Shown: in pieces, positions 8,312 to 44,022 of the stretch
Numbering within the stretch: position 1 is the stretch's first letter
Layout of the letters: each line of letters begins with the position of its first letter
Source of the DNA: Myxococcota bacterium
Lineage (GTDB): Bacteria > Myxococcota_A > UBA9042
NCBI GenBank assembly: GCA_049317445.1
Contig: JBMOIG010000002.1
Location: 2,635 to 66,634 of the forward strand
Length of the DNA stretch: 64,000 nucleotides
Direction: 5' to 3'
Program-made: the position numbers and the translations under genes
The notes under the pieces: model-generated
The model's input: the letters and a program-made list of their open reading frames with translations, nothing else
What the model was told of the DNA's origin: nothing
Database searches by the model: none

Positions 8312-9001
8312 ATGCTCACCCCAGCCCGCCACCGTCCGCAGCTCACCGTTGTGCTGCTGACCATCTGCAGCCTCGCAGTCGCTTTCAACGCCCACGCCGC
8401 CAAGCCGAAGACCAAGACGAAGCCCGCAGAGGCCGTTCCTGCCCAGCCTGCCCCTGAAGCCAAGCCCGCAGGCAACCCGGGGGACCCGCAGAAGTTCATC
8501 TCCGGCCTGTACGACCGACTGAATCAGCTGAGCCAGAAGGCGCCCAACCTCGACGTGCTCCACAGCCAAATCGGCAAGGAATTGAACACTATCGTCGACT
8601 ACACCGAGATGGCGCGCCTGACGCTGGGGGCCAAGTGGGATGAGGTCACGCCTGTGCAACGCACCGAGTTCACCGACCTGCTCGCCAAAATGGTGCTGAA
8701 CACCTACGTCCGCAGGTTCAAGCCGGGCAGCGCTGTCGAGATCGCTTGGGGTGCCGCGCCCAAGACGCTGTCCGAAGGCAAGGTCAAGATCACCAGCACC
8801 ATCACCGTGAAGAAGACCTCGGCCGACGTGCAGTACGCCCTGCTGCCCCGCGGAGGCCAGTGGTGGGTCTACGACATCGTGGTGGACGACGCGAGCCAGG
8901 TGCAGACCTATCGGCAGTCGTTCAAGAAGATTCTGGACAAGGAAGGTTGGCCTGGCCTGGTGCAGCGGATGCGCAAGGCCGGCCAGAAGAAGGCCGGATG
9001 A
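8312..9001 (+). CDS. mlaC: MlaC/Ttg2D-family periplasmic phospholipid-binding protein
   Basis: gaaggag RBS then ATG 8312; signal peptide MLTPARHRPQLTVVLLTICSLAVAFNAHA. Body (IVDYTEMARLTLGAKWDEVTPVQRTEFTDLLAKMVLNTYVRRF...WWVYDIVVDDASQVQTYRQSFKKIL) matches MlaC domain conservation. Confidence 0.65.
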   Translation: MLTPARHRPQLTVVLLTICSLAVAFNAHAAKPKTKTKPAEAVPAQPAPEAKPAGNPGDPQKFISGLYDRLNQLSQKAPNLDVLHSQIGKELNTIVDYTEMARLTLGAKWDEVTPVQRTEFTDLLAKMVLNTYVRRFKPGSAVEIAWGAAPKTLSEGKVKITSTITVKKTSADVQYALLPRGGQWWVYDIVVDDASQVQTYRQSFKKILDKEGWPGLVQRMRKAGQKKAG

Positions 9002-9909: not shown

Positions 9910-10019
9910 CGATTCGGCAAACGCGCCAAGCTGTGCTACTGTCGCCGCACGCTCTCATGAACGCTTCGTGAGAGTGACAACCGCGCCGGACAACGGTGCC
10001 AGGAAATGGGTACGTGCAG

Positions 10020-10436
10020 ATGGGAAACAAGCTTTTTGTCGGTGGCCTGAGCTGGGGAACGACGGACGAGTCGTTGCGCTCGGCCTTCGCGGAGTGTGGG
10101 GATGTGACGGACGCCAAGGTCATCACGGATCGTGAGACCGGCCGCTCGCGCGGTTTCGGCTTCGTTACGATGGCGGACGACGCCAGCGCTCGCGAGGCTG
10201 TGAGCCGCATGGACGGCCAGGCGATCGACGGTCGCACCGTCAAGGTCAGCGAGGCGCAAGAGCGCAGCCCCCGTAGCGGCGGCGGCGGCGGTGGCGGCGG
10301 CTTCGGCGGCGGCGGCGGCGGCGGTGGTGGCTACGGCGGCGGCGGCGACCGCGGCGGTCGCGGCGGCTTCGGCGGTGGCGGCGGCGGCGATCGCGGCGGC
10401 TTCGGCGGCGACCGCGGCGGCTTCGGCCGGCGCTAG
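10020..10436 (+). CDS. Glycine-rich RNA-binding protein (single RRM domain plus RGG/Gly tail)
   Basis: MGNKLFVGGLSWGTTDESLRSAF...RGFGFVTM contains the RNP-2 (LFVGGL) and RNP-1 (RGFGFVTM) motifs. C-terminal GGGGGGGGFGGGGGGGGGYGGGGDRGGRGGFGGG repeat tail. Confidence 0.85.
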   Translation: MGNKLFVGGLSWGTTDESLRSAFAECGDVTDAKVITDRETGRSRGFGFVTMADDASAREAVSRMDGQAIDGRTVKVSEAQERSPRSGGGGGGGGFGGGGGGGGGYGGGGDRGGRGGFGGGGGGDRGGFGGDRGGFGRR

Positions 10437-10493
10437 GCCCCAGCCACGGTCCGGGATGCCGGACCGACGCAAGCTACACTGCGAGCAAGCGAA

Positions 10494-10540
10494 CAACGCC
10501 CGCGGCACCGAAAGGAGCCGCGGGCGTTGTGCTTTTTGCC
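10494..10540 (+). terminator. Rho-independent terminator downstream of the RRM gene
   Basis: AACGCCCGCGGC-accgaaaggag-GCCGCGGGCGTT followed by GTGCTTTTTG. GC stem plus U-tract. Confidence 0.6.
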
Positions 10541-10630
10541 CCAAGCGCCGCTCATAGGAGTCCGGCGGCAGGCAGGCAGGCAAGCACCCTTCGGAACTCG
10601 CCGCCCAGGCCTCCGCGCATCCCCAAAACC

Positions 10631-10672
10631 AGAACGCCCGCGGGACCTTGCGGTGCCGCGGGCGTCCTTGAG
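10631..10672 (-). terminator. Probable terminator hairpin downstream of the A3 gene (end of the A/B array)
   Basis: Inverted repeat ACGCCCGCGG...CCGCGGGCGT located 35 nt beyond the stop at 10707. The stem sequence is the same as the neighbouring plus-strand terminator. No clear U-tract on the minus strand. Confidence 0.4.
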
Positions 10673-10706
10673 TTGAGAGCGAAGCCGCTATCGGCCGAGC
10701 GGCGAG

Positions 10707-12755
10707 CTACTGGTCGTAGCCGCCAGTGGCCGTGTCGAGGTCGTCGACGTACTGCAGTCCTGCGGGCAGGGCGAGGCTGTTGTTCGTGAAGCCCAAAATG
10801 AGCGTGCGGGACGAGTTGGACTCGGGACCAGTTGTCGAGACAAAGATCACCGTGCTCGTACGTCCAGCCGGAATCGACAGGGACACATCCTTCAGGCAGC
10901 CGGCATTGCAATTGCTGTCGGACGACCAAATGTTCTGTCCGTTGAGAGCGACCGAAGCGCGCTCCGACCAGCCGGGGTAGGCCGTGTATGCGAACCGAAC
11001 CGGCCAGGCTACGGTGGCGGCGGTGGTGTTCTTGATTCGGAACAGGGTGCCAGCAAAGCGCGACTGGCAGCTGCTACAGCCACGGTTGCGGCCGTACTTG
11101 AACCACTCGGAGTACACCCGCGCGTTGTTCATGGCGCTCCCCTTGCGATTGAAGAGCGTCGCCTGAATCGACTTGTCCGCGGAGATATCCGAAGCCTTGC
11201 CCTCACCATCGGACCAAGTCGACGGGTTGACGCCGCCAAAAAGGTCCGTCTGATTGCCGAATAGCCAGCCGCCGTTGCTGTTGTACGTGCTCCAAACGCC
11301 CCACCGGTAGGTCGAGGGGGTCAGGCCGCCAATGAACTGCGCAGCCGACACCTGACCGGTCACGGTGACGTTGCCGGTCACGGCGATGTTGCTCTTGACG
11401 TTGACTGTCTTGGCAGACACCAGCGTAAAGGCGACCGACCAGCTGTTGATCGCTCCGTCGGAATTGCCGCCCGTCACAGTGCTGTCCAGAACCTTCAGGT
11501 ACCACTTGCCTGCGGGGCTCTGACCCTTCCAGACGGAAAGATCGCCGGTGGCGACCGCCGTCGGGGTCGGGTAGGTCGTCTTCAGCACGGTGCCGCTACC
11601 CGACTTGTTGTGAAGGATGTACTCGTCACCATTCGGATCGTAGAGGTAGACGACCAGCTTGCCGATGTTGGAGTTGGTCAGATCCACCGACACCGTCATG
11701 CTCTGGATGGTGCCCAGCGCGCCGGCGGTGACGGAGTCGGTCACGCCGACGGGGCTGTTGTCAGGGATCGCGATGGCGGTCTTGCCGGCCAGCGTATCGG
11801 TGACCAAGTTGGTGAGGACGCCGTTCGACACGACCACGAGGCCGTCGTTCGGCAACATGTCGGCCGTCACCGACGGCGTCGCCGCCTCGACGCACGCCAA
11901 AGTACCGTCCGCGTTGATGCCTTCCGCAAGGAAGCCGGGGTCGCAAGCGGCGTCAGTGGCCACCAGCGTCGGCAGGTCACCCAAGTCGGCATAGCTGCCC
12001 GACGACGCGACGGTGGCAAGGTCAGCTGCCAGCGCATAGGCCGTCAGGTCCGGCACGCCGGTCAGGTCCGCGTACGCTCCCGAGGTCGCGAGTGCAGCCA
12101 GCGCGGCCGCCTTGGCGTAGATCGTCAGGTCCGGCGTCCCCGCCAAGTCCGCATACGCACCCGAAGATGCGAACTTGGTCAGGCCAGCCGACTTCGCGTA
12201 GGGCGCCAGGTCGGGCGTGCCTACCAGGTCCCCGTAGGCGCCGGTCGTTGCCGACTTGGAGAGGTCTGCCGACTTGACGTAGGGCGCAAGAACGGCCGGA
12301 TCGACGCTGGTCGACTTGACGCAGCCCGTGCAGTCCAACGCCTCGGTCACGATGCTGCGCATGGCGAACGGAACCGACGACAGCGACTGTCGCGGGAACT
12401 CAGGGTCCGCCCCGACCTTCACGCCGACAAACGGCGTCGTCAGGTTCGCAAAGACCGCCGGATTGATCGGCGTCTTCACGCCCAACGTGAAGTGGTAGAA
12501 GCCGCTCTTCACGGTCACGTTGACCGGACCCTCAGCAAACACCGCAACACCGCCGGAGGACGCTGCGTAGAGGCTGAAGGTCACGGCGTAGGTGCCGTCC
12601 GCCACGGGTCCGCCGCCCACCGAGAACAGGCCGCCGTGAACGGCAAGCGTGCTGGGGGCAGCGGCGAATGCGACGCCGGGCAGCGACAGGGCCAGGACGA
12701 CGGCCATGCTGCGCAACACGCCGAGTGCCTTGGAACCAGAGGTGAAGATGGTCAT
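10707..12755 (-). CDS. Family-A secreted protein A3: signal peptide, N-domain, phage-tail-fibre-like 22-aa repeats, P-domain (proprotein-convertase type), conserved unknown C-terminal domain
   Basis: 682 aa; MTIFTSGSKALGVLRSMAVVLALSLPGVAFA signal. Four to five tandem repeats YAK.A.L.K.ATSGAYADLxGxPDL. Segment GKLVVYLYDPNGDEYILHNKSGSGTVLKTTYP...WKGQSPAGKWYLKVLDSTVTGGNSDGAINSWSVAF resembles a P-domain. C-terminal ~220 aa (TYRWGVWSTYNSNGGW...LQYVDDLDTATGGYDQ) is conserved in all three paralogs. Paralogous to 15419-17068 and 19717-21756. Confidence 0.8.
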   Translation of the reverse strand: MTIFTSGSKALGVLRSMAVVLALSLPGVAFAAAPSTLAVHGGLFSVGGGPVADGTYAVTFSLYAASSGGVAVFAEGPVNVTVKSGFYHFTLGVKTPINPAVFANLTTPFVGVKVGADPEFPRQSLSSVPFAMRSIVTEALDCTGCVKSTSVDPAVLAPYVKSADLSKSATTGAYGDLVGTPDLAPYAKSAGLTKFASSGAYADLAGTPDLTIYAKAAALAALATSGAYADLTGVPDLTAYALAADLATVASSGSYADLGDLPTLVATDAACDPGFLAEGINADGTLACVEAATPSVTADMLPNDGLVVVSNGVLTNLVTDTLAGKTAIAIPDNSPVGVTDSVTAGALGTIQSMTVSVDLTNSNIGKLVVYLYDPNGDEYILHNKSGSGTVLKTTYPTPTAVATGDLSVWKGQSPAGKWYLKVLDSTVTGGNSDGAINSWSVAFTLVSAKTVNVKSNIAVTGNVTVTGQVSAAQFIGGLTPSTYRWGVWSTYNSNGGWLFGNQTDLFGGVNPSTWSDGEGKASDISADKSIQATLFNRKGSAMNNARVYSEWFKYGRNRGCSSCQSRFAGTLFRIKNTTAATVAWPVRFAYTAYPGWSERASVALNGQNIWSSDSNCNAGCLKDVSLSIPAGRTSTVIFVSTTGPESNSSRTLILGFTNNSLALPAGLQYVDDLDTATGGYDQ

Positions 12756-12849
12756 GAGATGCCCTCTCTTGCGGCGGGGTCGGTGGCTCTGGTGTCAGTT
12801 GCGTCGCCCCGCCGGCAACGCCTACTGTGCCTCTCGGCAAGCCCTGGTC
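12756..12849 (-). repeat. Conserved ~94-nt B-to-A intercistronic leader (copy 1), ~90% identical to 17069-17162
   Basis: Direct comparison: gagatgccctctcttgcggcggggtcggtgg(c/t)c(c/t)tggtg(a/t)cagt(c/t)gcgtcgccccgccggcaacgc(tt/ct)(g/a)ctgtgcct(t/c)tcggcaagccctggtc. In mRNA sense it contains an 8-bp GC stem CGGCGGGG...CCCCGCCG just 5' of the RBS AAGAGAGGG. Confidence 0.7.
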
Positions 12850-15366
12850 TTACTGCCCGATCAGTGCGCGGAGCCAAACGTACCAACCCAACCGGGTGAA
12901 GTACTTCTCGCCACCGCTCGCTTCGCCCGTCACGACGCTTGTGCCGACGTAGGTCTGCGTTCCATAGGTGCTTCCAGCAGCATTCACGGCAGCTGTGCCG
13001 AAGTCGACCGTCGCCGCTCCAGGCTCACAGCCCTCGTCGGTGATGCCGTCGCACGTGTCGTCGATGCCGTTGCAGGACTCGGAGTTCGCCGGCAGCACGG
13101 CGTCCTTGCAGATGCCGTAGGTGCCATCCGCCTGGCAAGCCTTCAGGCCATCCTTGCACTTGCCCTTGCCCTGGTTCTTCGGGTCGCCGGGGAAGCACGC
13201 GGCCGTGGCTGACGTGTCCACCTTGTGCGAGCACCCGGAGTCCTTGGCGCACGTGTCGGCGGTGCAGGGGTTGTTGTCGTCGCAGTTCGCCGCGGCACCG
13301 GAGACGCAGGTGTAGGCCTTGGTGACAGGATTCGTTCCGCAGGCGTCGCCCGAAGTGCACGCGTTGCCGTCGTCGCACGAGGCCGCGATCGGCTGGAAGA
13401 CGCAGGTGCCGGTCGTGGGGTCACACGCGTCCTTGGTGCAGTTCTCCTTGTCCTCACAGACCTTCTTGGGGCCTGCGACGCAGGAACCGCCGGCGCAGAC
13501 GTCGTTCACGGTGCAGGCGTTGCCGTCAGCGTCGCAAGGGGCCGTGTTGACAGTGAAGGTGCAACCCGACTTGGGGTCGCAGGCGTCGTCGGTGCAGAGA
13601 TTGGCGTCGTCGCACTTCTGCGCCGCGCCCTTGACGCACTGACCGTCTGCGCAGGCATCGTTCACGGTGCACAGGTCGTCGTCCGCGTTGCAGCCCGTAC
13701 CGACAACCGCCTTGGTGACCACGCACTGGCCGTCACCAGGATTGCACGCGACCGACTGGCACTGGTTGTTCAGGGTCTCGTCGCACTTGACCACGGAGTC
13801 CAGCTTGACGTTGCAGACCCACTTCACCGGGTCGGTCTTGTCGCAGAACAGCGTTCCGTTGCAGGCGTTGCCGTCCTCAGACGCCGCGCAGTCCTTGTCT
13901 TCAGCGCAGCTGCACTGGTTGGCGCCGGGAATGCAGGTTCCGGAGGTGCACTTGTCGCCAGGCGTACAAGGGTTGCCGTCGTCGCACGCCACGCCATCCG
14001 CGCCTGCCGGGTCGTGCACGCAGCCCTTGGAGGGCACACACGCATCCACCGTGCAGGGGTCCTTGTCGTCGCAGACCGTCGCGGTGTCCACCGCTGTGCC
14101 GGTGCACTTGCCGACCTTGCAGGCATCCTGCTCAGTGCAGGCGTCGCCGTCGTCGCAGACCGGCCCGTCCAAGTTGGCGTGCTTGCAGCCCAACATTGGG
14201 TCGCAGCTGTCCGCGCTGCAGGCATCCTTGTCGTTACAGTCGATCAGCTCGCCTCCGCAGGTCGAGGAGGTCGCGTCCGAGGCCAAGCAGACGTCTTTCA
14301 TCGTGCAGGCGCTGGCATCGTCGCAGGGTGTGCCGTCGGGCCGGGCGGCCGTCAGACAGTCTCCACTCGTCTTGTCGCATGAGCCGGACAGGCAGGGGTC
14401 GCCAGTCTCACACGTCTTGACTTCACCCTTGACGCAGGCGCCGTCCTTGCAGGTGTCGGCCACCGTGCAGGCGTCACCGTCAGCGTCACAGCTCGCGGTA
14501 TTGTTGGTGAAGACGCAGCCCTTCGCCGGGTCACACGTGTCGTCGGTGCACGGATTCTGGTCGTTGCACTCAAGGGTCGGACCTGGCTCGCACTTCGCCG
14601 CCTTGGTGCAGTAGTCGCCGTTGGTGCACAGGCTGTCGTCGGCGTTGCAGGTGCCCGTCTTCACCGCGTTCTTGCAGCCGTCCTTGCCCGCGCAAGAGTC
14701 CTCGGTGCATTGGTTGCTGTCGTCACAGGTCACGTCGTCGGTCGCGGCGTTGCAGTCGTTGTCGAGCCCGTCGCAGATCTCCGCCGTGGGCGCCTTGGCC
14801 GAGCAAGCGGTCAGGCCGGCCGCCTCGCACTTGCGAGTGCCCGTGCACTTGTTGACGCCCTGGGCGTCTGCGGAGAAGCAGGTCGTGTCCCAACCGGCGG
14901 CGATGGCGGCCTCACTGCACTTGCAGACGGCTCCGTCCTTCGGCACGCACTGCTTGACGGCGGCGCCGGTCACGTCCTTGACGTCAGCGCAGCCGTATCC
15001 GTCCGCGCAATCCTTGTCGACCGCGCACTTCGCTCCGCAAAACGCGCCGTCCTTGCCGAAGTCCACGCACACCGCGTCCGGAGCGCCGGCGCACTGGATG
15101 TTCGCCACGCAGGGAGCGCACAGGTCCCGGCCTTCCGGCTTCGCGATGTCCTGGTCCGTCATGTCGCCCGCAACATCGTCGGTGCTGTCCGGCTGGGTCA
15201 CATCGCCGGTGGTGTCTGCGGTGTCCGCGGTGTCCGCGACCACTGTGTCCGCGGGAGTCTCAGTCGTGGAACCGGCGTCGCCGCACGCGACCAGGCCGGC
15301 AGTAGCCAGTCCAAGTACACACGCCGTTGCGATGCGTCCAGCAAGCAGTTCTCGAAGGGTCTTCAT
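12850..15366 (-). CDS. Family-B cysteine-rich lipoprotein B2 (MopE-like CDGxDNDC motifs plus Myxococcus-type Cys-rich repeats)
   Basis: ATG 15366 with GAGGAGTGG RBS. MKTLRELLAGRIATACVLGLATAGLVACGD (lipobox LVAC). About 20 units of C-[DN]-D-x-[ND]-x-C-T-x-D-x-C spacing. AEICDGLDNDCNAATDD and ESCNGIDDTCDGITDEGC motifs. C-terminal GGEKYFTRLGWYVWLRALIGQ. Longer ORF to 15405 adds 13 unlikely residues. Confidence 0.75.
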   Translation of the reverse strand: MKTLRELLAGRIATACVLGLATAGLVACGDAGSTTETPADTVVADTADTADTTGDVTQPDSTDDVAGDMTDQDIAKPEGRDLCAPCVANIQCAGAPDAVCVDFGKDGAFCGAKCAVDKDCADGYGCADVKDVTGAAVKQCVPKDGAVCKCSEAAIAAGWDTTCFSADAQGVNKCTGTRKCEAAGLTACSAKAPTAEICDGLDNDCNAATDDVTCDDSNQCTEDSCAGKDGCKNAVKTGTCNADDSLCTNGDYCTKAAKCEPGPTLECNDQNPCTDDTCDPAKGCVFTNNTASCDADGDACTVADTCKDGACVKGEVKTCETGDPCLSGSCDKTSGDCLTAARPDGTPCDDASACTMKDVCLASDATSSTCGGELIDCNDKDACSADSCDPMLGCKHANLDGPVCDDGDACTEQDACKVGKCTGTAVDTATVCDDKDPCTVDACVPSKGCVHDPAGADGVACDDGNPCTPGDKCTSGTCIPGANQCSCAEDKDCAASEDGNACNGTLFCDKTDPVKWVCNVKLDSVVKCDETLNNQCQSVACNPGDGQCVVTKAVVGTGCNADDDLCTVNDACADGQCVKGAAQKCDDANLCTDDACDPKSGCTFTVNTAPCDADGNACTVNDVCAGGSCVAGPKKVCEDKENCTKDACDPTTGTCVFQPIAASCDDGNACTSGDACGTNPVTKAYTCVSGAAANCDDNNPCTADTCAKDSGCSHKVDTSATAACFPGDPKNQGKGKCKDGLKACQADGTYGICKDAVLPANSESCNGIDDTCDGITDEGCEPGAATVDFGTAAVNAAGSTYGTQTYVGTSVVTGEASGGEKYFTRLGWYVWLRALIGQ

Positions 15367-15418
15367 CTGCCACTCCTCGGTCCGACGGCGTTCAGTGCTG
15401 TGCAAGTCGCAACCCGCA

Positions 15419-17068
15419 TCAGTTGTCCCAACCGTTCGCGGCGGTCTCCAGATCGTCCACGTACTCGAGGCCGTCCGGCAGAGTCAGCGTCGGATGGCGG
15501 AAGCCAAGCATGACAAGCACGTTGCCGCGTCCGCCTGGGCCGTTGCTGCTCACGAAGATGACGGTGCTGGTTCGGTTGGCCGGGATGGTCAACGCGACGC
15601 TCTGCTCACAACCGTTGCCGCAGTCGTTGCCGGATTGCCAGACGTTGCTGCCGTTCAGGGCGACGGAGGCCTGATTGCTCCACCCTGAATACGAGGTGTA
15701 GACGTACTTCACGGTCCAGGTGATGGCAGAGCCCGTGCTGTTTCGGACACGCATGAGGGTTCCGGCGAATCGCGCGGCTTGGCTGTAGTTGCCACCAATC
15801 TGAAACTGCTCGGCAACGACGTTCGCGGCAGAGCGGGCGTAGCCCTTGCGATTGAACAGCGATGCAAGCACGTTTTTGTCCGAGCTCATCGCAGCCGCAT
15901 TGGCCATGCTCTCAGCCCAGTTCGACGGGTTGACGCCGCCAAACAGGCTGGCGTTGTTGCCCCAGAACCAGTCGTTGCAGTTCAGGTAGGTGTCCCACAT
16001 GCCCCAGCGGTACGTCGCGGTCGGCACGCCCTTGATCGGCTTGGAAACGATGAGGTTGCCGGTGATGGTCAGGTTGCCGGCGGCGCTGAAGTTGTCCGCC
16101 ACCTTCAGGGTGCCGCTGACGTTCTGAAGGATGCCGTTCGAGATGGCTCCGAGTCCGTCCGGGGGAAGCGACGCGGCGGGCAGCAGACCTACCATCGCCT
16201 GGGCGCAATCCAACGAACCGTCCGCCTTGATGCCCTTGACCACCAGACCCGTGCCGCAGCTGACGCCGAGGGCGACGTGGGTGGGCAGTCCTGCGAGGTC
16301 GGCGTAGGCGCCCGTCGTGGCGACCTTGGCGAGGTTGGCCTTGACGGCAAATCCCGTAAGGTCGGGCGCATCCGCGACATCGGCGAACTTGCCTGACGTC
16401 GCGACCGTCGCCAGGTTGCCCGACTGTGCGTAGACGGCGAGGTTCGGCGTGCCCGCGACGGTGGCGTAGGCGCCCGAGGTCGCGACCTTGGCGAGGTCAG
16501 CGATCTTCGCGTAGGGCGAAAGGTCAGGCGTGCCCGCAAAGTCGGCATAGGCGCCTGAGGTCGCGGCCTTCGCCAAGCCAGCGGACTTCGCATAAGGCGC
16601 GAGCACCGCGGCGTCCAACTGACCGGACGTGATGCAGCCCGTGCAGTCCACGCCGTCGGCGGTGGCCGACCGCAGTGCGTAGGGCAGCGCACCCATCGGC
16701 TGGCGGGCCAGCTCCGGGTCGGCGCCAATCTTGATGCCGAGATACGGCGTGGCCAAGGCCACCACGACCGCGGGGTCCAGCAGCGTCTTGGAGCCGATGG
16801 TGTACTGGTAGTAGCCACCCTTCACGGCGACCACGACCGGCCCCTCAACGTACACCGGGTTTCCGCCCACGGCGGCCTGGTACAGGCTGAAGGTCATGAA
16901 GTAGTTGCCATCCGACACCGCGCCACCGCCGGCAGCGAACAACCCGCCATGAACCGCCATCGAGCTGGGCACGGCCGCAAAAGCGACGCCCGACAGCGAC
17001 AGGGCCAGGACGACGGTCATGCTGCGCAACACGCCGAGTGCCTTGGATCCAGAGGTGAAGATGGTCAT
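15419..17068 (-). CDS. Family-A secreted protein A2 (short form: tail-fibre-like repeats and C-domain, P-domain absent)
   Basis: ATG 17068 gives MTIFTSGSKALGVLRSMTVVLALSLSGVAFA, nearly identical at nucleotide level to the A3 start. Repeats LAKAATSGAYADFAGTPDLSPYAK... C-terminal ATYRWGMWDTYLNCNDWFWGN...LEYVDDLETAANGWDN. The ~110-aa P-domain segment of A1/A3 is missing. Confidence 0.75.
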   Translation of the reverse strand: MTIFTSGSKALGVLRSMTVVLALSLSGVAFAAVPSSMAVHGGLFAAGGGAVSDGNYFMTFSLYQAAVGGNPVYVEGPVVVAVKGGYYQYTIGSKTLLDPAVVVALATPYLGIKIGADPELARQPMGALPYALRSATADGVDCTGCITSGQLDAAVLAPYAKSAGLAKAATSGAYADFAGTPDLSPYAKIADLAKVATSGAYATVAGTPNLAVYAQSGNLATVATSGKFADVADAPDLTGFAVKANLAKVATTGAYADLAGLPTHVALGVSCGTGLVVKGIKADGSLDCAQAMVGLLPAASLPPDGLGAISNGILQNVSGTLKVADNFSAAGNLTITGNLIVSKPIKGVPTATYRWGMWDTYLNCNDWFWGNNASLFGGVNPSNWAESMANAAAMSSDKNVLASLFNRKGYARSAANVVAEQFQIGGNYSQAARFAGTLMRVRNSTGSAITWTVKYVYTSYSGWSNQASVALNGSNVWQSGNDCGNGCEQSVALTIPANRTSTVIFVSSNGPGGRGNVLVMLGFRHPTLTLPDGLEYVDDLETAANGWDN

Positions 17069-17162
17069 GAGATGCCCTCTCTTGCGGCGGGGTCGGTGGC
17101 CCTGGTGACAGTCGCGTCGCCCCGCCGGCAACGCTTGCTGTGCCTTTCGGCAAGCCCTGGTC
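17069..17162 (-). repeat. Conserved ~94-nt B-to-A intercistronic leader (copy 2)
   Basis: See 12756-12849. Same hairpin-plus-RBS arrangement preceding A2. Confidence 0.7.
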
Positions 17163-19649
17163 CTATTGTCCGATCAGCGTACGCAGCCAGATGTACCAGC
17201 CCAACCGGGCGAAGTACTTCTCACCACCGCTGGCGTCTCCCGTGACTGCGCTTGTTCCCATGTACGACTGCGTGCCGTAAGTCGCGCCCGTTGCGCTGAT
17301 GGCGGCGACGCCGAAACCGATCTTGGACGAACCCGGCTCGCACCCCTCATCGGTGGCGCCGTTGCAGGTGTCGTCGATGCCGTTGCAGAGCTCTGCAGAA
17401 CCCGGCAAGACGGCGCCCGTGCAGCTGCCGAACTTTCCGTCTGCCTGGCAGAACTTGACGCCGTCCTTGCACTTGCCCTTGCCCTGATTGGCCGGGTCGC
17501 CGGGGAAGCAGGCTGCCTTGACGTTCGTGTCGACCTTGTGGGCACACCCGTTGTCCTTCGCGCACGAGTCGATGGTGCAAGGGTTGCCGTCGTCGCAGTC
17601 CACGCCCTTGCCGGGCACGCAGGTGTACACCTTGGTGGCGGGGTCGGAACCGCAAGCGTCGCCGGTCGTGCAGGCGTTGCCGTCGTCGCAGGTCGCCGTG
17701 ATGCCTTCGAACACGCAGAGCGCAGACGTAGCGTCGCAGGAGTCCTTGGTGCATTCCTCGCTGTCGTCGCAGACCTTCTTGGCACCCGCGACACACGACC
17801 CGCCCGCGCAGATGTCGTTCACCGTGCAGGCGTCGCCATCTGCGTCACATGACGCGGTATTCGGCGTGAACTTGCAGCCGTTCTTCGGGTCGCAGGTGTC
17901 GTTGGTGCAACCGTTGCTGTCGTCGCACTTCTCAGCGGACCCCTTGGCGCAGATGCCGTTGGCGCAAGCGTCCTTGACGGTGCACACGTCGTTGTCGGCG
18001 TTGCACGCCGTGCCCGCCTCGGCCTGGCTGACGACGCACTTGCCGGTGGCGGTGTCGCACGCCACGCTCTGGCAGGCGGTGTTGAGCGACTCGTCGCACT
18101 TGACGATCGTGTTCTTGTTGACGTTGCAGACCCACTTCATCGGGTCAGCCTTGTCGCAGACCAGCGTTCCGTTGCAGAGATCCCCATCTTCCGCGGGTGC
18201 GCAGTCCGCATCCTTGGTGCATTGGCACTGATTCACGCCACCCTCGCACGTCCCGGCCTTGCACTTGTCGTTGGGGGTGCAGGGGTTGCCGTCTTCGCAG
18301 GCCGCGCCGTCAGCGCCGGCGACGTCGTGCACGCAGCCCTTGTCCGGCGAGCAGGTGTCGGCCGTGCAGGGGTCCTTGTCGTCGCACGCCTTGGCCACTT
18401 CCAAAGCCGCGCCGCTGCACTTGCCGGCGACGCAGGCGTCGTCGAGGGTGCAGGCGTTGCCGTCGTTGCAGACGCCGACGTCCAGAGGTGCGTGCTTGCA
18501 ACCCACCGTCGGGTCGCAGCTGTCGGCCGTGCAGTTGCTGAGGTCGTCGCAGTCCACGATCTCGCCGCCGCAGGTCGAGGTAGTAGCGTCGGAGGCCAAG
18601 CAGACGTCGGACACGGTGCAGGCGCTGGCGTCGTCGCAAGGGGTGCCGTCGGGGCGCGTGGCCTTGGTGCACTTGCCGGTCGCTTCGTCGCAGCCGCCGA
18701 TAAGGCACGCGTCGCCCGTCTCGCAGGCCTTGAGCGCGCCGGCCTGGCAAGTGCCGTCCTTGCACATGTCCCCGAGCGTGCACGCTTTTCCATCCGCGCA
18801 CTCGACCGTGTTGTTGGCGTACTGGCAGCCCTTGGTCGGGTCGCACGAGTCGTCGGTGCAGGGGTTCTTGTCGTCGCAGTCAAGCGCCTTGCCCGGCGCG
18901 CAGGTGCCGTCCTTGCACGCATCCTTGTCGGTGCAGGCACTGCCGTCGGCGTCGCACGCCGCCGTGTTGGCCTTGTTCTCGCAACCGGCGACGCCTGCGC
19001 ACTTGTCGTCGGTGCAAAGGTTCTGGTCGTCGCAAGACACGTCGTCGGTCTGGGCGTTGCAGTCGTTGTCGAGACCGTCGCAGATCTCAGCAGACGGCGC
19101 CTTTGCCGAGCACGCCGACAGGCCGCCCGCTTCGCACTTGCGGGTTCCCGTGCACTTGTTGACGCCCTTGTCATCGGCCACGAAGCACGTCGTGTCCCAA
19201 GCGCCCGCGGTGGCCGCAACGCTGCACGTGCAGAGGGCGCCGGCCTTGGGAACGCACTGCTTGACCGCCGCACCCGCCACGTCCTTGACGTCGCTGCAGC
19301 CGTAACCGTCGGCGCAGTCCGTGTCGACCGTACACTTCGCTCCGCAGAAGGCCCCATCCTTGCCGAAGTCGACGCAGACGGAGTCGGGCTTGGTCGTGCC
19401 CTGACACTGCTCATTGGCGGTGCAGGGGGCGCACAGCTCAGCGCGACCATCAGGTGCGACCGTGTCTTCGGTGACGGTATCGGGCAGGGCCACGTCTTCG
19501 GTGGTGTCGGTTGCATCGCCAACGACGGTGTCCGTGGCATCACCCTGCACGCTGCCACTGTCACCGCAGGCTGCAACACCGGTCGCGGCGAGGCCAATGG
19601 CGCACGCCGTGCCGATATGTCCCGCTAGCAGTTCTCGAAGGGTCTTCAT
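17163..19649 (-). CDS. Family-B cysteine-rich lipoprotein B1
   Basis: 828 aa; MKTLRELLAGHIGTACAIGLAATGVAACGD (lipobox VAAC). Same architecture and about 70-75% identity to B2. Ends GGEKYFARLGWYIWLRTLIGQ. Confidence 0.8.
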   Translation of the reverse strand: MKTLRELLAGHIGTACAIGLAATGVAACGDSGSVQGDATDTVVGDATDTTEDVALPDTVTEDTVAPDGRAELCAPCTANEQCQGTTKPDSVCVDFGKDGAFCGAKCTVDTDCADGYGCSDVKDVAGAAVKQCVPKAGALCTCSVAATAGAWDTTCFVADDKGVNKCTGTRKCEAGGLSACSAKAPSAEICDGLDNDCNAQTDDVSCDDQNLCTDDKCAGVAGCENKANTAACDADGSACTDKDACKDGTCAPGKALDCDDKNPCTDDSCDPTKGCQYANNTVECADGKACTLGDMCKDGTCQAGALKACETGDACLIGGCDEATGKCTKATRPDGTPCDDASACTVSDVCLASDATTSTCGGEIVDCDDLSNCTADSCDPTVGCKHAPLDVGVCNDGNACTLDDACVAGKCSGAALEVAKACDDKDPCTADTCSPDKGCVHDVAGADGAACEDGNPCTPNDKCKAGTCEGGVNQCQCTKDADCAPAEDGDLCNGTLVCDKADPMKWVCNVNKNTIVKCDESLNTACQSVACDTATGKCVVSQAEAGTACNADNDVCTVKDACANGICAKGSAEKCDDSNGCTNDTCDPKNGCKFTPNTASCDADGDACTVNDICAGGSCVAGAKKVCDDSEECTKDSCDATSALCVFEGITATCDDGNACTTGDACGSDPATKVYTCVPGKGVDCDDGNPCTIDSCAKDNGCAHKVDTNVKAACFPGDPANQGKGKCKDGVKFCQADGKFGSCTGAVLPGSAELCNGIDDTCNGATDEGCEPGSSKIGFGVAAISATGATYGTQSYMGTSAVTGDASGGEKYFARLGWYIWLRTLIGQ

Positions 19650-19716
19650 CTGACTCTCCCTGGTTCAGGGTCAGGTGGTCGAGGAGGTCCAGTCTACGCC
19701 AGTCGCGCTACCGGAC

Positions 19717-21756
19717 TTACTGCTCCCAACCGCCCGTCGCCGTGTCCAGATCGTCGACGAGTTCGAGACCATTCGGCATGTTGAGGCTGTCGTTGTAGAA
19801 GCCCAGCATGAGCGCGCGGGAGCCGCAGGATTCCGGGCCGGTACCTGCGATGAAGATGACCGTGCTGGTGCGGTTGGCGGGGATCGTCAACCCGGCGCTG
19901 GCTGTGCATCCCACGTAGCAGTCGCTGCCGGTCCAGACCGTATTGCCGTTGATCATCAAAGCCGAGCGCTCGCCCCAACCTTGGTACGAGGTGGCCACCC
20001 AGTACAGCGGCCAGTTGATGCCGCTGCCGGTCGTGTTCTTGACGCGGAATAGGGCACCTGCTCGCTTGGCCTCTGTGCTGCCAATCTGATTACCCTTGCG
20101 CCACATCTGCGCCGTGACCAACGTATTGAATTTCGCGTAACCCTTCTCGGAGAAGAGCGTAGCGAGCGACACCTTGGCGGAGGACATGTCGCTGGGATTC
20201 GGGTTGCTGTCGCACCAAGTAGACGGAGCCACACCACCGAACAACTCGCCGTCGTTGTTCATGAACCAGCCGCTACCATGGTCATAGCAGTCCCACACAG
20301 CAAAGCGGTACTTGGCCTTGGGCAAGCCGAGGATGCTGCCGCCGACGGTGATGGAACCGGCGACCGTGGCGTTGCCGACGACCGTGGCGGAGCCGCTGAC
20401 GCCGACTTTGTTCCCGGAGATCACTTGGAAGTTGAGCGACCACGCCGTGACCTTGCCGTCGATGTTGCCGTCGAGCTTGCCGCTATCGACGACCTTCAAG
20501 TACCACTTGCCCTTGGGGTTCTTGCCGATCCAGGTGGTCAGGTCGCCGCTGGCCGGACTGGTCGGGTCAGGGTAGGAGGTCTTCAGCGTGGTGCCAAAGC
20601 TGCTCTTGTTGTACAGGACGTACGCGGCGCCGGCCGGGTCGTAGAGCGTCACTTGAATCTTGGCGAGGTCGGAGTTCAAGAGGTTGATCGACACGGTGAA
20701 GGTCTGGACGATGCCGATGTCGCCAACTTCGACGGTGTCGGTCGCACCAACCGGGGTGTTGTCCGGGATCGGCAGGTTCGGGGTGCCCGAGATCTTCTCA
20801 GCGAAGACGTTGGTCAGCAGGTTGTTCGAGACCTCGTCGAGGCCATCCTTGGGCAGGTTTGCCGCAAGCACGCTGGTGATGTTCGTCTGAACGCAGTCGA
20901 GCGAACCGTCTTCCAGGAAGCCGGCCACGAGCAGGCCGGTGCCGCAGGACTGACCCACCTGAGCAACGGCGGGAGCACCGGCAAGGTCGTTGTACGAGTT
21001 GGTGGTCGCTACGGTCGCGAGGTCGGCCGCCTTGGCGTAGCCCGCCAGGTCCGGCACGCCGGTGAGGTCGGCGTAGGCACCGGAGACCGCAACCTTGGCG
21101 AGCGAGGCCGCCTTGGCGTAGATGGCGAGGTCCGGGGTGCCGGAGACGTCGGCGTAGGCGCCCGTCGTGGCAACCTTGGCAAGCCCAGCCGTCTTTGCGT
21201 ACGCCGTGAGGTCCGGTGCGCCCGTGACGTCCGCGTAGGCGCCCGACGTCGCGACCTTGGCCAGCGTGTCCGTCTTGGCGTACGGCGCCAGAACGTCTGC
21301 AGCCAAGTGGGTCGCCTTGAGGCACCCGGTGCAGCCCAGCGAGTCGCTGACCGAGGAACGCAGGGCGTACGGCACCGACGTCATGGGCAGCTTGGTGAAC
21401 TCAGGGTCGGTGCCGACCTGAATCGCCAAGTACGGCGACGTCAGCTTCGCCAGCGTGTCGGCGCTGAGCGACGCCTTGGTGCCGAGCGTGTACTGGAAGA
21501 CGCCATTCTTGACAGTGACGCCAGTGGGGCCTTCCACGTAGGCGGCGCTGCTGCCGATGGCCGACGGGTAGATGCTGAACGTCATCTGGTAAGCGCCATC
21601 TGAAATCGGCCCGCCGCCAACTGCGTACAGTCCGCCGTGCACGTCGATGAGCTTGGGCACGGCTGCGAAGGCCACGCCGGGAAGCGCAAGCAGCAAGGCG
21701 AAGGCCATGCTGCGCACGACGCCGAGAGCCTTGGAACGATGGGTGAAGATCGTCAT
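19717..21756 (-). CDS. Family-A secreted protein A1 (promoter-proximal paralog with P-domain)
   Basis: ATG 21756 gives MTIFTHRSKALGVVRSMAFALLLALPGVAFA. Repeats AKVATSGAYADVTGAPDLTAYAKTAGL... P-domain AKIQVTLYDPAGAAYVLYNKSSFGTTLKTSYP...KGKWYLKVVDSGKLDGNIDGKVTAWSLNF. C-terminal ...LELVDDLDTATGGWEQ. Confidence 0.8.
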   Translation of the reverse strand: MTIFTHRSKALGVVRSMAFALLLALPGVAFAAVPKLIDVHGGLYAVGGGPISDGAYQMTFSIYPSAIGSSAAYVEGPTGVTVKNGVFQYTLGTKASLSADTLAKLTSPYLAIQVGTDPEFTKLPMTSVPYALRSSVSDSLGCTGCLKATHLAADVLAPYAKTDTLAKVATSGAYADVTGAPDLTAYAKTAGLAKVATTGAYADVSGTPDLAIYAKAASLAKVAVSGAYADLTGVPDLAGYAKAADLATVATTNSYNDLAGAPAVAQVGQSCGTGLLVAGFLEDGSLDCVQTNITSVLAANLPKDGLDEVSNNLLTNVFAEKISGTPNLPIPDNTPVGATDTVEVGDIGIVQTFTVSINLLNSDLAKIQVTLYDPAGAAYVLYNKSSFGTTLKTSYPDPTSPASGDLTTWIGKNPKGKWYLKVVDSGKLDGNIDGKVTAWSLNFQVISGNKVGVSGSATVVGNATVAGSITVGGSILGLPKAKYRFAVWDCYDHGSGWFMNNDGELFGGVAPSTWCDSNPNPSDMSSAKVSLATLFSEKGYAKFNTLVTAQMWRKGNQIGSTEAKRAGALFRVKNTTGSGINWPLYWVATSYQGWGERSALMINGNTVWTGSDCYVGCTASAGLTIPANRTSTVIFIAGTGPESCGSRALMLGFYNDSLNMPNGLELVDDLDTATGGWEQ

Positions 21757-22189
21757 GAGCAGTCCTCTTGTGCGGCGGGGTCGGTAGCCGTGGACGTTCG
21801 CAAGGCGAAGGTCCCAGTAGGGATGCGACGGCGGCGCGTTGGTGCGCAGAGCGGGCATCGAGGAGCCGAGCGCCGAACCGAGGTTCAGTGCCAAGTTGGG
21901 CCTTCTATCCTATCAGACGGCAAACGCAAGCACTCCACGATCCAGCGGCCCGTTGATGATTCGCTGGGAGAGACCGACGAAGGTGGCAGGCTGTGCCTAA
22001 GGCATTGAAAGAATGGCTGCACACCTCTTCTTCCTGATGGTCTGGAAGACTTCCGTTCCTTACCACTACACACATAGAGTCGGTCTCAGGTCCCCTCCGC
22101 GACGTCGGCGGGTGCCCTTGCGGATCCCGGGCGGCCAAGCGACGATGCCGTCCGGGCCCCTCCCCCACGGCCCTTTGGAGTGCAACCAC

Positions 22190-23464
22190 ATGACCCGCAA
22201 GCCAGAAGGTTTCCTGGGCGACCGGCCCCTGAAGCCCGAGTCGCTGATGATGAGCTACGGCTACGACCCCCACCGGTCGGAGGGAGCTCTGAAGTCCCCG
22301 ATCTTCCAGACTTCCACCTTCGTGTTTCGCACCGCGGAGGAGGGCAAGGCGTTCTTCGAGGTCGCCTACGGCCTGCGCGAAAAGGGGCCCCGCGAGGAGC
22401 TGGGGCTCATCTACAGCCGCCTGAACAACCCCGATCTGGAGATCCTGGAGGACCGGCTGACGCTGTGGGACGACGCGGAGGCGTGCGCCGTCTTCGAGAG
22501 CGGCATGGCGGCCTGCGCGACGACCCTGATGGAGTTCGCGCGACCCGGTGAGTTCATTGCCCACAGCACGCCAATCTACGGTGGGACCGACTACCTGTTG
22601 GGCCACGTGCTGCCGCGCTTTGGGATCACCGGCGTTCCGTTCCCGGCGGGTGGTGGCGCTGTGGCCATGGAAGCTGCGCTGGAGAAGGCCGGCGCCCAAG
22701 GCAAGCTGTCGGCCGTGTTTCTGGAGACGCCTGCCAACCCCACGAATGCTTTGGTGGATATCGCGGCGTGCTCTGAGGTCAGTCGGCGCTGGGCCGCACC
22801 GGGGCGACAGGTTCCCGTCATCGTGGACAACACGTTCCTGGGTCCGCTGTGGCAGCAGCCGCTCAAGCACGGCGCCGACCTGGTGCTGTACTCTGCGACG
22901 AAATTCCTTGGTGGTCACAGTGACTTGATTGCCGGAGCCTGTTTGGGGCGCAAGGAGTTGATCGACCGCGTCCGGACGCTGCGCACCTTCCTGGGCACCA
23001 TGTCGGGTCCGTGGACGGGGTGGCTGCTGATGCGCAGTCTGGAGACGTTGAAGGTCCGCATGACCTGCCAGATGAGGAATGCCCGGCAGATCGCGGACTT
23101 CTTGAACGATCATCCGAAGATCCAGCGCGTGCACTACCTGGGGCTGCTGAAGCAGGGCGACGCGCAGTTCGACCTGTATCGACGGCAGTGCCTGGGGCCG
23201 GGGTCGATCATCACGTTTGAGGTGCAGGGCGGCGAGTTGGAGGCCTTCCGGCTGCTGAACGCGCTGGAGCTCGTGACGCTGGCCGTCAGTCTGGGCGGCA
23301 CCGAGTCGTTGGCAGAGCACCCAGCCACGATGACGCACGCGGACGTGCTGCCCGCCACCCAGCGCGAGATGGGGATCACTTCGGCGATGGTGCGGTTGTC
23401 GGTCGGCGTCGAGCACGTCGACGACTTGATTGCAGATCTGACGCAAGCGCTCGAGAAAGTGTAA
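22190..23464 (+). CDS. Cys/Met-metabolism PLP-dependent enzyme (cystathionine gamma-synthase / methionine gamma-lyase family)
   Basis: [27 protein letters not shown]...[11 protein letters not shown]...[11 protein letters not shown]...[16 protein letters not shown] has the PLP-lysine motif. Start chosen at ATG 22190; the upstream in-frame extension from 22013 is probably leader. Confidence 0.8.
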
Positions 23465-43887: not shown

Positions 43888-44022
43888 GACGCCTCGTAGC
43901 AATGGGCGCTCGCCCCCGATGATGGTCAAGCTACCCAGAGTCCGGCCCAACCGCAACGCCCAAGACGGAGGTCAGGCAAGCAACTGTGGCGCTGCGAAGC
44001 TTTGGGGCAGGCTCGCCGAAGG

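What the first reader, a model, noticed from the sequence alone, without database searches (positions are those of the whole stretch)
10707..21756. Tandemly amplified, alternating two-family gene array (A1-B1-A2-B2-A3) encoding tail-fibre-like/P-domain secreted proteins and Cys-rich lipoproteins
Five co-oriented minus-strand genes are separated by only 67, 94, 52 and 94 nt. They alternate between two paralogous families. Family A (679/549/682 aa) has a nearly identical signal peptide (MTIFTSGSKALGVLRSM...), an N-terminal domain (VHGGLFxxGGGxxxDGxYxxTFSLY), 4-5 tandem 22-aa repeats (YAKxAxLxKxATSGAYADLxGxPDL) reminiscent of phage tail-fibre repeats, a proprotein-convertase-type P-domain (LYDPxGxxYxLxNKSxxGTxLKTxYP...GKWYLKVxD...W) and a conserved ~220-aa C-terminal domain of unknown function ending ...YVDDLDTAxGGW/Y. 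Family B (838/828 aa) are lipoproteins (LxAC lipobox) with MopE-like CDGxDNDC motifs at both ends, about 20 Myxococcus-type Cys-rich repeat units (C-DDxNxCTxDxC) and a conserved amphipathic C-terminal tail (GGEKYF[TA]RLGWY[VI]WLR[AT]LIGQ). The strict A-B alternation, shared leaders and a terminator only after A3 suggest a single ~11 kb transcript built by duplication of a B-A unit. The architecture partly recalls the Myxococcus TraA recognition protein (Cys-rich repeats plus a sorting signal) but with a different N-domain and anchor and an obligatory A partner. I do not recognise this pairing as a described system. Candidate roles are cell-surface receptor/ligand pairs for prey or kin recognition, or an adhesin plus its maturation partner.
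Basis: partly seen in the sequence, partly recalled or inferred. Interest (0 to 1): 0.85.

Follow-up and report, generated by a model that had tools for sequence, protein, structure and literature searches.

The report
Chimeric surface fibres plus lipoprotein partner
This 11-kb gene array from an uncultured freshwater Myxococcota bacterium encodes three modular, secreted fibre proteins with exchangeable binding tips, resembling the prey-recognition fibres of Bdellovibrio, interleaved with two cysteine-rich lipoproteins that were found next to such a fibre gene in every relative that could be checked and may be their unidentified partner on the cell surface.

Summary
Five co-oriented minus-strand genes (A1-B1-A2-B2-A3, 10707-21756) alternate between two paralogous families, with spacers of 67, 94, 52 and 94 nt and one strong terminator after A3.

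Family A is neither a protease nor a new kind of protein. Its architecture is that of the MAT ("mosaic adhesive trimer") chimeric fibres described in Bdellovibrio in 2024:
- signal peptide
- conserved Ig-like N-domain
- four 27-aa (not 22-aa) fibre repeats
- an optional P-domain
- an exchangeable tip

About 80 relatives share the base but carry at least eight tip types. One related MAG holds at least 42 copies. The tip here is a lectin-like beta-sandwich and shows a separate, recombinant history between strains.

Family B is a lipoprotein with 100 cysteines (Dicty_CTDC repeats) that ends in a conserved amphipathic beta-strand tail.

The new result is the linkage. All 8 B-centred loci and all 22 tail-bearing B ORFs in A-centred loci lie adjacent to, and co-oriented with, an A gene. 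Most A genes have no B neighbour.

Best reading: a B→A module in which B is the conserved surface partner of the variable-tip fibres, possibly their anchor. That mechanism is inferred, not shown. The TraA analogy is not supported.

The parts
19717..21756 (-). A1, 679 aa. MAT-like chimeric fibre: Sec signal, Ig-like N-domain, four 27-aa repeats, disulfide 'mid' module, P-domain, neck, lectin-like 'c' tip. Identical to NCBI MFZ4576897.1.
17163..19649 (-). B1, 828 aa. Lipoprotein with 100 Cys: lipobox VAAC|GD, acidic linker, Nd domain, Dicty_CTDC repeats, Cd domain, C-terminal amphipathic beta-strand tail. NCBI MFZ4576896.1 / ACOYOB_00770.
15419..17068 (-). A2, 549 aa. Same fibre as A1 and A3, with the P-domain cleanly deleted.
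12850..15366 (-). B2, 838 aa. Paralogue of B1 (69% identity).
10707..12755 (-). A3, 682 aa. Paralogue of A1 (52% identity).
12306..12662 (-). A3 N-terminal domain (aa 32-150). Conserved Ig-like beta-sandwich followed by an invariant C-x-G-C motif. This is the base shared by all family members.
11958..12281 (-). A3 stalk: four tandem 27-aa repeats (aa 159-266).
11427..11705 (-). A3 P-domain (PF01483, aa 351-443).
10710..11324 (-). A3 'c' tip domain (aa 478-682). Predicted beta-sandwich whose fold resembles PA14 and GH2 sugar-binding domains. Its evolutionary history between strains is recombinant.
12850..13017 (-). B2 C-terminal tail region (aa 783-838), ending in the conserved strand ...RLGWYVWLRALIGQ.
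17069..17162 (-). 94-nt B1->A2 spacer with a stable hairpin and a GAGAGG ribosome-binding site. Nearly identical to the B2->A3 spacer.
12756..12849 (-). 94-nt B2->A3 spacer, the duplicate of the B1->A2 spacer.
10625..10667 (-). Intrinsic-terminator-like hairpin plus T-run after A3. It is the only such element in the array.

Best explanation
The array is a tandemly duplicated 'B->A' module of an adhesion system specific to one lineage.

**A proteins.** These are secreted, probably trimeric, surface fibres of the MAT type. A conserved Ig-like N-domain forms the base. A short stalk of 27-aa repeats, a disulfide-bonded module and an optional P-domain knob carry an exchangeable C-terminal tip. In all three copies here the tip is a lectin-like beta-sandwich, which most likely binds a glycan or another surface ligand on other cells or particles. 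The organism keeps dozens of such fibres with different tips, and the tips are exchanged by recombination.

**B proteins.** B is a lipid-anchored, disulfide-stiffened rod ending in a conserved amphipathic beta-strand. It is the conserved partner encoded with the fibre. Most likely it is the cell-surface element on which the conserved fibre base docks, or is presented.

**Shown:**
- gene structure, domain architecture and tip mosaicism
- family expansion
- purifying selection
- the B=>A linkage

**Inferred:**
- trimer formation and surface location
- ligand binding by the tip
- co-transcription
- above all, physical docking of A on B
For: **Modular fibre**
- The N-domain, repeats, mid module and P-domain are conserved in about 80 relatives. 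The 'c' tip occurs in only about 22 of them.
- Other tips include fibrinogen-like GGGWT (32 of 70), Cys-rich repeats (8 of 70), COLFI, TLD, FGE-sulfatase, F5/8C and collagen.

**MAT likeness**
- The Bdello_MAT_N model hits the N-domain of 15 of 70 members (best E 5.8e-5).
- The MAT paper describes a signal peptide, a beta-rich N-domain of about 130 aa, variable tips (including FGE, collagen-like and beta-sandwich), 21 copies per genome, and examples in Myxococcales and Bradymonadaceae.

**Expansion**
- The genome scan found 325 relatives, with at least 42 ORFs in one MAG.
- The N-domain profile matches 39,017 cluster representatives.

**Tip**
- The AF2 model has pLDDT 88.
- Against L011, tip dS is 0.39-0.61, compared with 0.04-0.11 in the N-domains of the same genes. 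Identity drops to 0.75-0.86 while the rest of each gene is mostly 0.90-0.99.

**Trimer hint**
- Family members carry collagen triple helix or COLFI.
- Relatives of the repeat occur with YadA and phage-fibre repeats.

**B partner**
- All 8 B-centred loci (L008, L009, L084-L089) have an adjacent co-oriented A.
- All 22 tail-bearing B ORFs in A-centred loci are adjacent and co-oriented with A. Tail-less relatives are mostly not: 4 of 14 adjoin an A and only one of these is co-oriented.
- 26 of 120 A ORFs have a B-family neighbour. The background is 5 B-family ORFs in 332 kb.
- B is uniformly conserved (dN 0.007-0.02) while the tips vary. This fits a partner of the conserved base.
- The MAT authors state that the N-domain must bind a still unidentified surface element.

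**Operon**
-.
Against: - The match to the MAT N-domain model is far below its curated cut-off (22 versus 60 bits), so homology to Bdellovibrio MATs is suggested rather than proven.
- The afdb50 fold library, which would hold Bdellovibrio models, was unavailable.
- No multimer or complex prediction was possible, so neither the trimer nor A-B contact was tested.
- No A-B fusion protein exists among the 372 fetched sequences.
- Most A genes have no neighbouring B. B is therefore either shared in trans or not needed for fibre display.
- Two B(long)/B(short) pairs have consecutive accession numbers, and one of them is in the window's own MAG. No A lies between them, and their flanks could not be read.
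- The loci were ascertained around A or B genes, and several are orthologous, so the counts are not independent.
Confidence: 0.5

Rival explanations
1. A and B are independent surface or matrix adhesins. They sit together only because they are co-regulated and co-amplified in 'adhesin islands'. They make no physical contact, and each binds its own external ligand.
For: - Other Cys-rich proteins and tail-less B relatives also cluster near A arrays, sometimes on the opposite strand (L028, L029, L046, L051, L084-L087).
- A arrays exist without B (L006).
- B belongs to a very large family (>5000 hits) with its own size classes.
Against: The linkage is too specific for loose clustering. Only tail-bearing B genes are involved, they are always immediately adjacent and co-oriented, and this holds across three B size classes and many MAGs.
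Confidence: 0.25
2. B is the cognate ligand of the A tip on sister cells. The pair would be a self- or kin-recognition and cell-cell adhesion system, functionally like a split TraA (lectin-like head on A, Cys-rich stalk on B).
For: - The tip has a PA14-like fold.
- Tips are polymorphic between close strains.
- B neighbours are enriched for A genes with the 'c' tip: 16 of 46, against 10 of 74 for other tips.
Against: - B does not co-vary with the tips. It stays 93-99% identical where tips fall to 75-86%.
- B also pairs with A genes that carry other tips (L045, L063, L086).
- No MYXO-CTERM, no TIGR02232 repeats and no TraB-like gene are present.
Confidence: 0.1
3. B is an assembly, export or folding factor for A, for example a surface-export or disulfide/trimerisation helper. 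Alternatively, A acts on B through its P-domain.
For: - The gene order is conserved, with B upstream of A.
- A has an invariant CxGC motif and a disulfide module.
- B has 100 Cys.
Against: - B is 830-1420 aa of repetitive rod-like modules, unlike known pilotins or chaperones.
- Most A genes lack a neighbouring B.
- A2 lacks the P-domain, yet keeps a B neighbour.
- No catalytic domain is present in A.
Confidence: 0.1
4. The array is a remnant of a prophage or tailocin tail-fibre module.
For: - The repeat region gives weak hits to phrog_30808 and phrog_17509 (E 3.5e-6 to 7.7e-5).
- Relatives of the repeat carry PF22337 phage tail fibre repeats.
Against: - The flanks are housekeeping genes (queA, TolC/MlaC, metC-like, glycosyltransferases, pheST), with no phage genes.
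- The proteins have Sec and lipoprotein signals.
- There are dozens of chromosomal copies.
- The N-domain has no significant viral structural match.
Confidence: 0.03

Closest known systems
MAT (mosaic adhesive trimer) chimeric fibres of Bdellovibrio bacteriovorus (Caulton et al. 2024, PMC10769870; NCBIfam NF053851 Bdello_MAT_N)
   Same: - Signal peptide, then a conserved beta-rich N-domain of about 120-130 aa, a repetitive fibre and an independently folding exchangeable tip.
- Many paralogues per genome, some in tandem.
- Overlapping tip types (FGE-like, collagen-like, lectin-like beta-sandwiches).
- A weak but recurrent sequence match of the N-domain (15 of 70 members).
- The MAT paper's own list includes MAGs of Myxococcales and Bradymonadaceae.
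   Different: - The match to the Bdellovibrio N-domain model is far below its cut-off.
- The proteins are shorter (550-680 aa, against about 1000).
- The stalk is made of 27-aa repeats, not long beta-helices.
- There is an internal P-domain and a CxGC motif.
- No S74 chaperone-protease tips were seen.
- There are at least 42 copies in one MAG.
- A conserved adjacent Cys-rich lipoprotein gene (B) is present. To my knowledge this has not been reported for MATs.
Myxococcus TraA/TraB outer-membrane-exchange recognition system
   Same: - Myxococcota cell-surface proteins.
- A polymorphic lectin-like (PA14-type fold) head and a Cys-rich repeat stalk with a lipid anchor.
- A two-gene unit.
   Different: - Head and stalk are on two different proteins here.
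- The lipid anchor is an N-terminal lipobox, not MYXO-CTERM.
- The repeats are Dicty_CTDC, not TIGR02232.
- There is no OmpA-type TraB.
- B does not co-vary with the polymorphic tip.
Phage tail fibres / receptor-binding proteins
   Same: - Modular fibres with recombining distal tips.
- The repeat unit is distantly related to phage-fibre repeats.
   Different: - Chromosomal, Sec-exported and in a housekeeping context.
- No baseplate or other phage genes are nearby.
Dictyostelium-type CTDC Cys-rich repeat proteins (Pfam PF00526)
   Same: B matches the repeat model well above its threshold (78-83 bits).
   Different: [quoted passage not shown]
- No solved relative was found.
- The function of the bacterial members is undescribed.

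Membership tests
MAT chimeric fibre superfamily | Signal peptide directly followed by a conserved beta-rich N-terminal domain of about 130 aa | tested here: met
   - The Sec signal ends in AFA|A.
- The AF2 model of aa 31-158 is a beta-sandwich, pLDDT 83.
- The domain is conserved in all relatives.
MAT chimeric fibre superfamily | Sequence match to NF053851 Bdello_MAT_N at its curated cut-off (60 bits) | tested here: not met
   A1 scores 22.1 bits (E 1e-4). 15 of 70 family members match at E<0.01 (best 5.8e-5), and all are below the cut-off. The model is a Bdellovibrio subfamily model, so remote homology stays open.
MAT chimeric fibre superfamily | Exchangeable, independently folding C-terminal tip domains on a conserved base | tested here: met
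   at least 8 tip types; tip-specific divergence between orthologous arrays
MAT chimeric fibre superfamily | Multi-copy family within one genome | tested here: met
   At least 42, 19 and 14 A ORFs in three MAGs among the best 80 loci.
MAT chimeric fibre superfamily | Trimeric fibre displayed on the cell surface | not testable with these tools
   No multimer prediction was available. The only hints are indirect: collagen and COLFI tips, and relatives of the repeat that occur with YadA or phage-fibre repeats.
MAT chimeric fibre superfamily | Structural similarity of the N-domain to Bdellovibrio MAT N-domains | not testable with these tools
TraA/TraB (Myxococcus outer-membrane exchange) | MYXO-CTERM sorting signal and TIGR02232 Cys-rich repeats in the receptor | tested here: not met
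   NCBIfam gave no hit on B1 or B2 at E<=0.1. The C-terminus is ...GWYVWLRALIGQ.
TraA/TraB (Myxococcus outer-membrane exchange) | Adjacent OmpA-domain TraB gene | tested here: not met
   Pfam hits to the flanking ORFs scanned include an RRM protein, MlaC, an outer-membrane efflux (OEP/TolC-type) protein, a Cys/Met PLP enzyme and GT4 glycosyltransferases; none matched an OmpA domain.
Subtilisin-like proprotein convertase (the name given by JGI/NCBI annotation) | Peptidase_S8 catalytic domain N-terminal to the P-domain | tested here: not met
   Only PF01483 is found, and A2 lacks even that. The public annotation is misleading.
Dicty_CTDC repeat proteins (PF00526) | Repeat match above the gathering score | tested here: met
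   B2 scores 82.9 bits and B1 77.9 bits, against a cut-off of 27, with 7 stretches each.
Bacterial lipoprotein | Signal peptide ending in the lipobox [LVI][ASTVI][GAS]C | tested here: met
   LVAC|GD in B2 and VAAC|GD in B1, and conserved in relatives. Lipidation itself was not tested.
Prophage tail-fibre module | Neighbouring phage structural genes, or significant phage family or fold matches | tested here: not met
   The context is housekeeping genes. PHROGs gave only weak matches to families of unknown function. BFVD gave no match at E<=0.001.

The most novel reading that the evidence does not exclude
The tail-bearing Cys-rich lipoprotein B is the long-sought cell-surface docking element for the conserved N-domain of MAT-type fibres. 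Its C-terminal amphipathic beta-strand would insert into, or augment, the Ig-like fibre base. A few B rods would then display an interchangeable repertoire of dozens of fibres. This would define a general two-component 'pedestal plus swappable fibre' adhesion apparatus in predatory or particle-attached bacteria.
Probability: 0.28. Interest if true: 0.8.

Novelty: new variant of a known kind. Interest (0 to 1): 0.62.

Why it matters
MAT fibres are the only molecular explanation so far for how a bacterial predator recognises many kinds of prey. The authors left open what holds the fibres on the cell.

This locus shows three things:
- A much larger repertoire of the same design exists in an uncultured freshwater Myxococcota lineage, with at least 42 copies in one MAG and at least eight tip types.
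- The tips are exchanged by recombination between close strains.
- A specific lipoprotein family was encoded next to such a fibre gene in every locus that could be checked.

The third point gives a concrete, testable candidate for the missing surface partner.

Two practical consequences follow. The public annotation of these genes as 'subtilisin-like proprotein convertase' is wrong. The N-domain family has 39,017 cluster representatives but gave no Pfam-A match.

Tried and rejected
**Searches that gave nothing**
- Sequence searches of A3, the A tip profile, the A N-domain profile and B2 against PDB sequences found nothing significant. The only result was a marginal NEAT-domain hit at E 1e-3.
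- Rfam on 9000-23000 at E<=1 gave no match, so the spacer hairpins are not a known RNA family.
- B->A spacers from other MAGs show no obvious sequence similarity by eye, so the 94-nt element is a local duplicate.
- No A-B fusion ('Rosetta stone') exists among the 372 fetched proteins.

**Searches that failed or were poorly targeted**
- The first genome scan, with a 70-sequence alignment, failed because it had no conserved stretch. It was repeated with 20 sequences.
- The tail-only profile search of the 5.8-billion-protein set returned one 31-aa fragment, because the query was too short.
- The metagenome scan with the B C-terminal profile was mostly off-target, because the pattern chosen was the generic CDGxDNDCDG motif. 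Only L089 was a true tail-bearing B.
- The look-up of encoding contigs for P0003 found no record.

**Readings rejected**
- Proprotein convertase or protease: no catalytic domain.
- TraA-like receptor.
- Prophage fibre.
- Amphipathic-helix tail: the hydrophobic moment favours a strand.

Full report
**1. Observation**

The region holds five long minus-strand ORFs at exactly the stated positions:

| Gene | Coordinates | Length |
|---|---|---|
| A3 | 10707-12755 | 682 aa |
| B2 | 12850-15366 | 838 aa |
| A2 | 15419-17068 | 549 aa |
| B1 | 17163-19649 | 828 aa |
| A1 | 19717-21756 | 679 aa |

- The spacers are 67, 94, 52 and 94 nt.
- The A paralogues are 52-54% identical and the B paralogues 69%, so the duplications are old.
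- The genes are real. In-frame GC3 is 0.84-0.86, and every domain is under purifying selection against two orthologous arrays (dN/dS 0.0-0.26).
- The same A-B-A-B-A order is kept in loci from related MAGs and metagenome assemblies (L001, L010, L011).
- A1 is identical to NCBI MFZ4576897.1. P0122 (MFZ4576896.1, ACOYOB_00770; 828 aa, same 103,585-nt contig, consecutive accession) appears to be B1, although its identity to B1 was not computed. Both are from a MAG named 'Myxococcota bacterium'.
- The flanks are housekeeping genes: queA, a purM-like gene, TolC and MlaC, an RRM protein, a Cys/Met PLP enzyme, glycosyltransferases and pheST. This is not a mobile element.

- The repeat in A is 81 nt, or 27 aa, in four copies. 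It is not 22 aa.
- The predicted Phage_fiber_2, TIGR02232/DUF4215 and MopE hits were not obtained. P_proprotein (A1 and A3 only) and Dicty_CTDC (B1 and B2) were.

**2. What A is**

A search with A3 returned 122 relatives, nearly all from uncultured Myxococcota. Domain-wise BLAST shows the following:
- The N-domain (aa 34-150), the repeats, a two-cysteine 'mid' module and the P-domain are shared by about 80 proteins.
- The C-terminal 205 aa ('c' tip) is present in only about 22.
- The others end in fibrinogen-like GGGWT domains (32 of 70), Cys-rich repeats (8 of 70), COLFI, TLD, FGE-sulfatase, F5/8C or collagen.

This is the architecture of the MAT fibres of Bdellovibrio. Those have a signal peptide, a conserved beta-rich N-domain of about 130 aa, a fibre and swappable tips. 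There are 21 copies per genome, and examples are listed from Myxococcales and Bradymonadaceae (PMC10769870).

The NCBIfam Bdello_MAT_N model hits the N-domain of A1 (E 1e-4) and of 15 of 70 family members. All of these hits are far below its cut-off of 60 bits. I therefore say that A works like a MAT and probably belongs to that superfamily, but sequence membership is not established.

Structure predictions:
- The N-domain model is an Ig-like sandwich (pLDDT 83) with no specific PDB or viral relative. The MAT authors reported the same for their N-domain.

No protease domain exists, so the public name 'subtilisin-like proprotein convertase' is wrong.

**3. Expansion and tip exchange**

- A scan of one genome per species found 325 relatives. 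They are concentrated in about 15 MAGs, most of them from freshwater lakes.
- Among the best 80 loci alone, one MAG (Lake Loclat bin-517) holds at least 42 A ORFs, and two others hold 19 and 14. Bin-517 is the closest relative of the window's organism in the genome scan, and its array is mostly 90-99% identical in nucleotides.
- The N-domain profile matches 39,017 cluster representatives at E<=1e-3.
- Between the window and its closest orthologous array (L011), the three tips fall to 75-86% nucleotide identity while the rest of each gene is mostly 90-99%.
- Tip dS is 0.39-0.61, against 0.04-0.11 in the N-domains of the same genes, and tip dN/dS stays at 0.16-0.26.
- The tips therefore have a separate history, which points to recombination rather than decay. 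B1 and B2 are evenly conserved (dN 0.007-0.02).

**4. What B is**

B has the following features, from N- to C-terminus:
- a lipoprotein signal
- an acidic linker
- a conserved Cys-rich Nd domain
- 15-16 CTxDxC repeat units (Dicty_CTDC)
- a mid module
- a Cd domain
- a G/T/S-rich tail of about 56 aa, ending in ...G[FW]YxW[LI][KR]xx[LI]G[LKQ]

It contains 100 cysteines. The last 14 residues have a hydrophobic moment of 1.4-1.6 as a beta-strand and 0.1-0.5 as a helix. B has more than 5000 relatives in three size classes that share Nd, Cd and the tail. It has no solved relative and no NCBIfam match.

**5. The A-B link**

A-centred census, 74 genome loci:
- 26 of 120 A ORFs have a B-family neighbour: 16 of 46 with the 'c' tip and 10 of 74 with other tips.
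- The background is 5 B-family ORFs in 332 kb lying more than 5 kb from any A.
- All 22 ORFs with the full B architecture and tail are immediately adjacent to and co-oriented with an A. Of the 14 tail-less relatives, only four adjoin an A and only one of these is co-oriented.

Reverse test, using B proteins picked only for long contigs:

| Locus | Gene order |
|---|---|
| L084 | B -> Ac |
| L085, L087 | B(long) -> Ac -> B(short), syntenic in two MAGs |
| L086 | B(1422 aa) -> A |
| L088 | B -> Ac -> B |
| L008 | Ac -> B -> A x5 |
| L009 | split A -> B |
| L089 | B -> Ac ... A |

That is 8 of 8. So B implies A, whereas most A genes lack a B.

Caveats:
- The loci were ascertained around A or B genes, and some are orthologous.
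- Two B(long)/B(short) pairs with consecutive accession numbers have no A between them. One of these pairs is in this MAG. Their flanks could not be read.

**6. Mechanism**

Shown:
- The genes are secreted or lipidated by sequence signals.
- The fibres are modular, with a conserved base and recombining tips.
- The B->A module is conserved.
- The genes are co-oriented and closely spaced, with one terminator after A3 and nearly identical 94-nt B->A leaders carrying a hairpin and a ribosome-binding site.

Inferred:
- The A fibres are trimeric and on the surface, and they bind external ligands through their tips.
- B is a lipid-anchored disulfide-stiffened rod that partners the conserved part of A. 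The favoured role is the docking element that the MAT study could not identify.

The pattern of 'variable tip, constant B' favours a partner of the base over a cognate tip ligand.

Rival readings are an adhesin island with no physical contact, a self-recognition pair, an assembly helper and a phage remnant. They are scored in the rival explanations. The last is excluded by the genomic context.

**7. Verdict**

A is a new, strongly expanded variant of a known kind, the MAT-type chimeric fibres. The conserved lipoprotein partner appears to be undescribed: full-text searches found nothing. It is the part worth following up.

Noticed in passing
window 12306-12662 (A3 N-domain) and relatives: The N-domain profile matches 39,017 representative clusters (16,012 at E<=1e-10) in the 1.84-billion-protein library, yet no Pfam-A model hits it. 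NCBIfam has only a Bdellovibrio-specific model. A very large domain family seems to lack a general model.
   Followed up: partly
L010, L012, L015, L017, L029 and others (assemblies CAYURO01, CAYHHL01): Two MAGs titled 'uncultured Enterobacteriaceae bacterium' carry arrays about 90% identical to this Myxococcota locus, plus dozens of A genes. Their taxonomic label is almost certainly wrong.
   Followed up: no
window 17069-17162 and 12756-12849: The two 94-nt B->A spacers are nearly identical. They fold into a stable hairpin (-36 to -38 kcal/mol) whose 3' arm abuts the ribosome-binding site, and the last ~30 nt recur upstream of A1. There is no Rfam match, and no obvious sequence similarity to the B->A spacers of other MAGs. 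They may be an mRNA processing or stability element.
   Followed up: partly
window aa 142-145 of A1-A3 (e.g. 12321-12332 in A3): An invariant C-[ST]-G-C motif sits at the junction of the N-domain and the stalk in the 20- and 33-sequence family alignments (nearly invariant among 70). It could form inter-chain disulfides or a metal site on the fibre axis, or a redox link to the Cys-rich partner.
   Followed up: no
L003/L004 12114-16186: One 'c'-tip A gene is followed by a DUF7379 protein and a 908-aa Dicty_CTDC protein that lacks the B Nd domain and tail. This is a different Cys-rich neighbour.
   Followed up: no
L009 7911-9983; L013 9830-11902: An A gene next to a B gene is split into two ORFs in two related assemblies. 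It is either a conserved frameshift or pseudogene, or a programmed frameshift.
   Followed up: no
L085 and L087: The B(long)-A-B(short) unit is syntenic in two MAGs, lying between ribF/aroE-like genes and a pseudouridine synthase. It is followed on the opposite strand by a protein of about 1850 aa with MopE-type motifs.
   Followed up: no
window 53981-57310 (-) and 40234-43971 (-): Two further large ORFs lie in the window. One is 1109 aa with no Pfam match. The other is 1245 aa with FG-GAP and beta-propeller repeats. Both are possible further surface proteins.
   Followed up: no
window 9978-10436 (+): A small RRM-domain RNA-binding protein gene lies just downstream of the array's terminator, on the opposite strand.
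   Followed up: no
window 13643-14614, 17488-19305 (+): Long antisense ORFs with GC3 of 0.85-0.90 lie inside B1 and B2. They are most likely artefacts of the high G+C content and the Cys/Asp-rich repeats, not genes.
   Followed up: no
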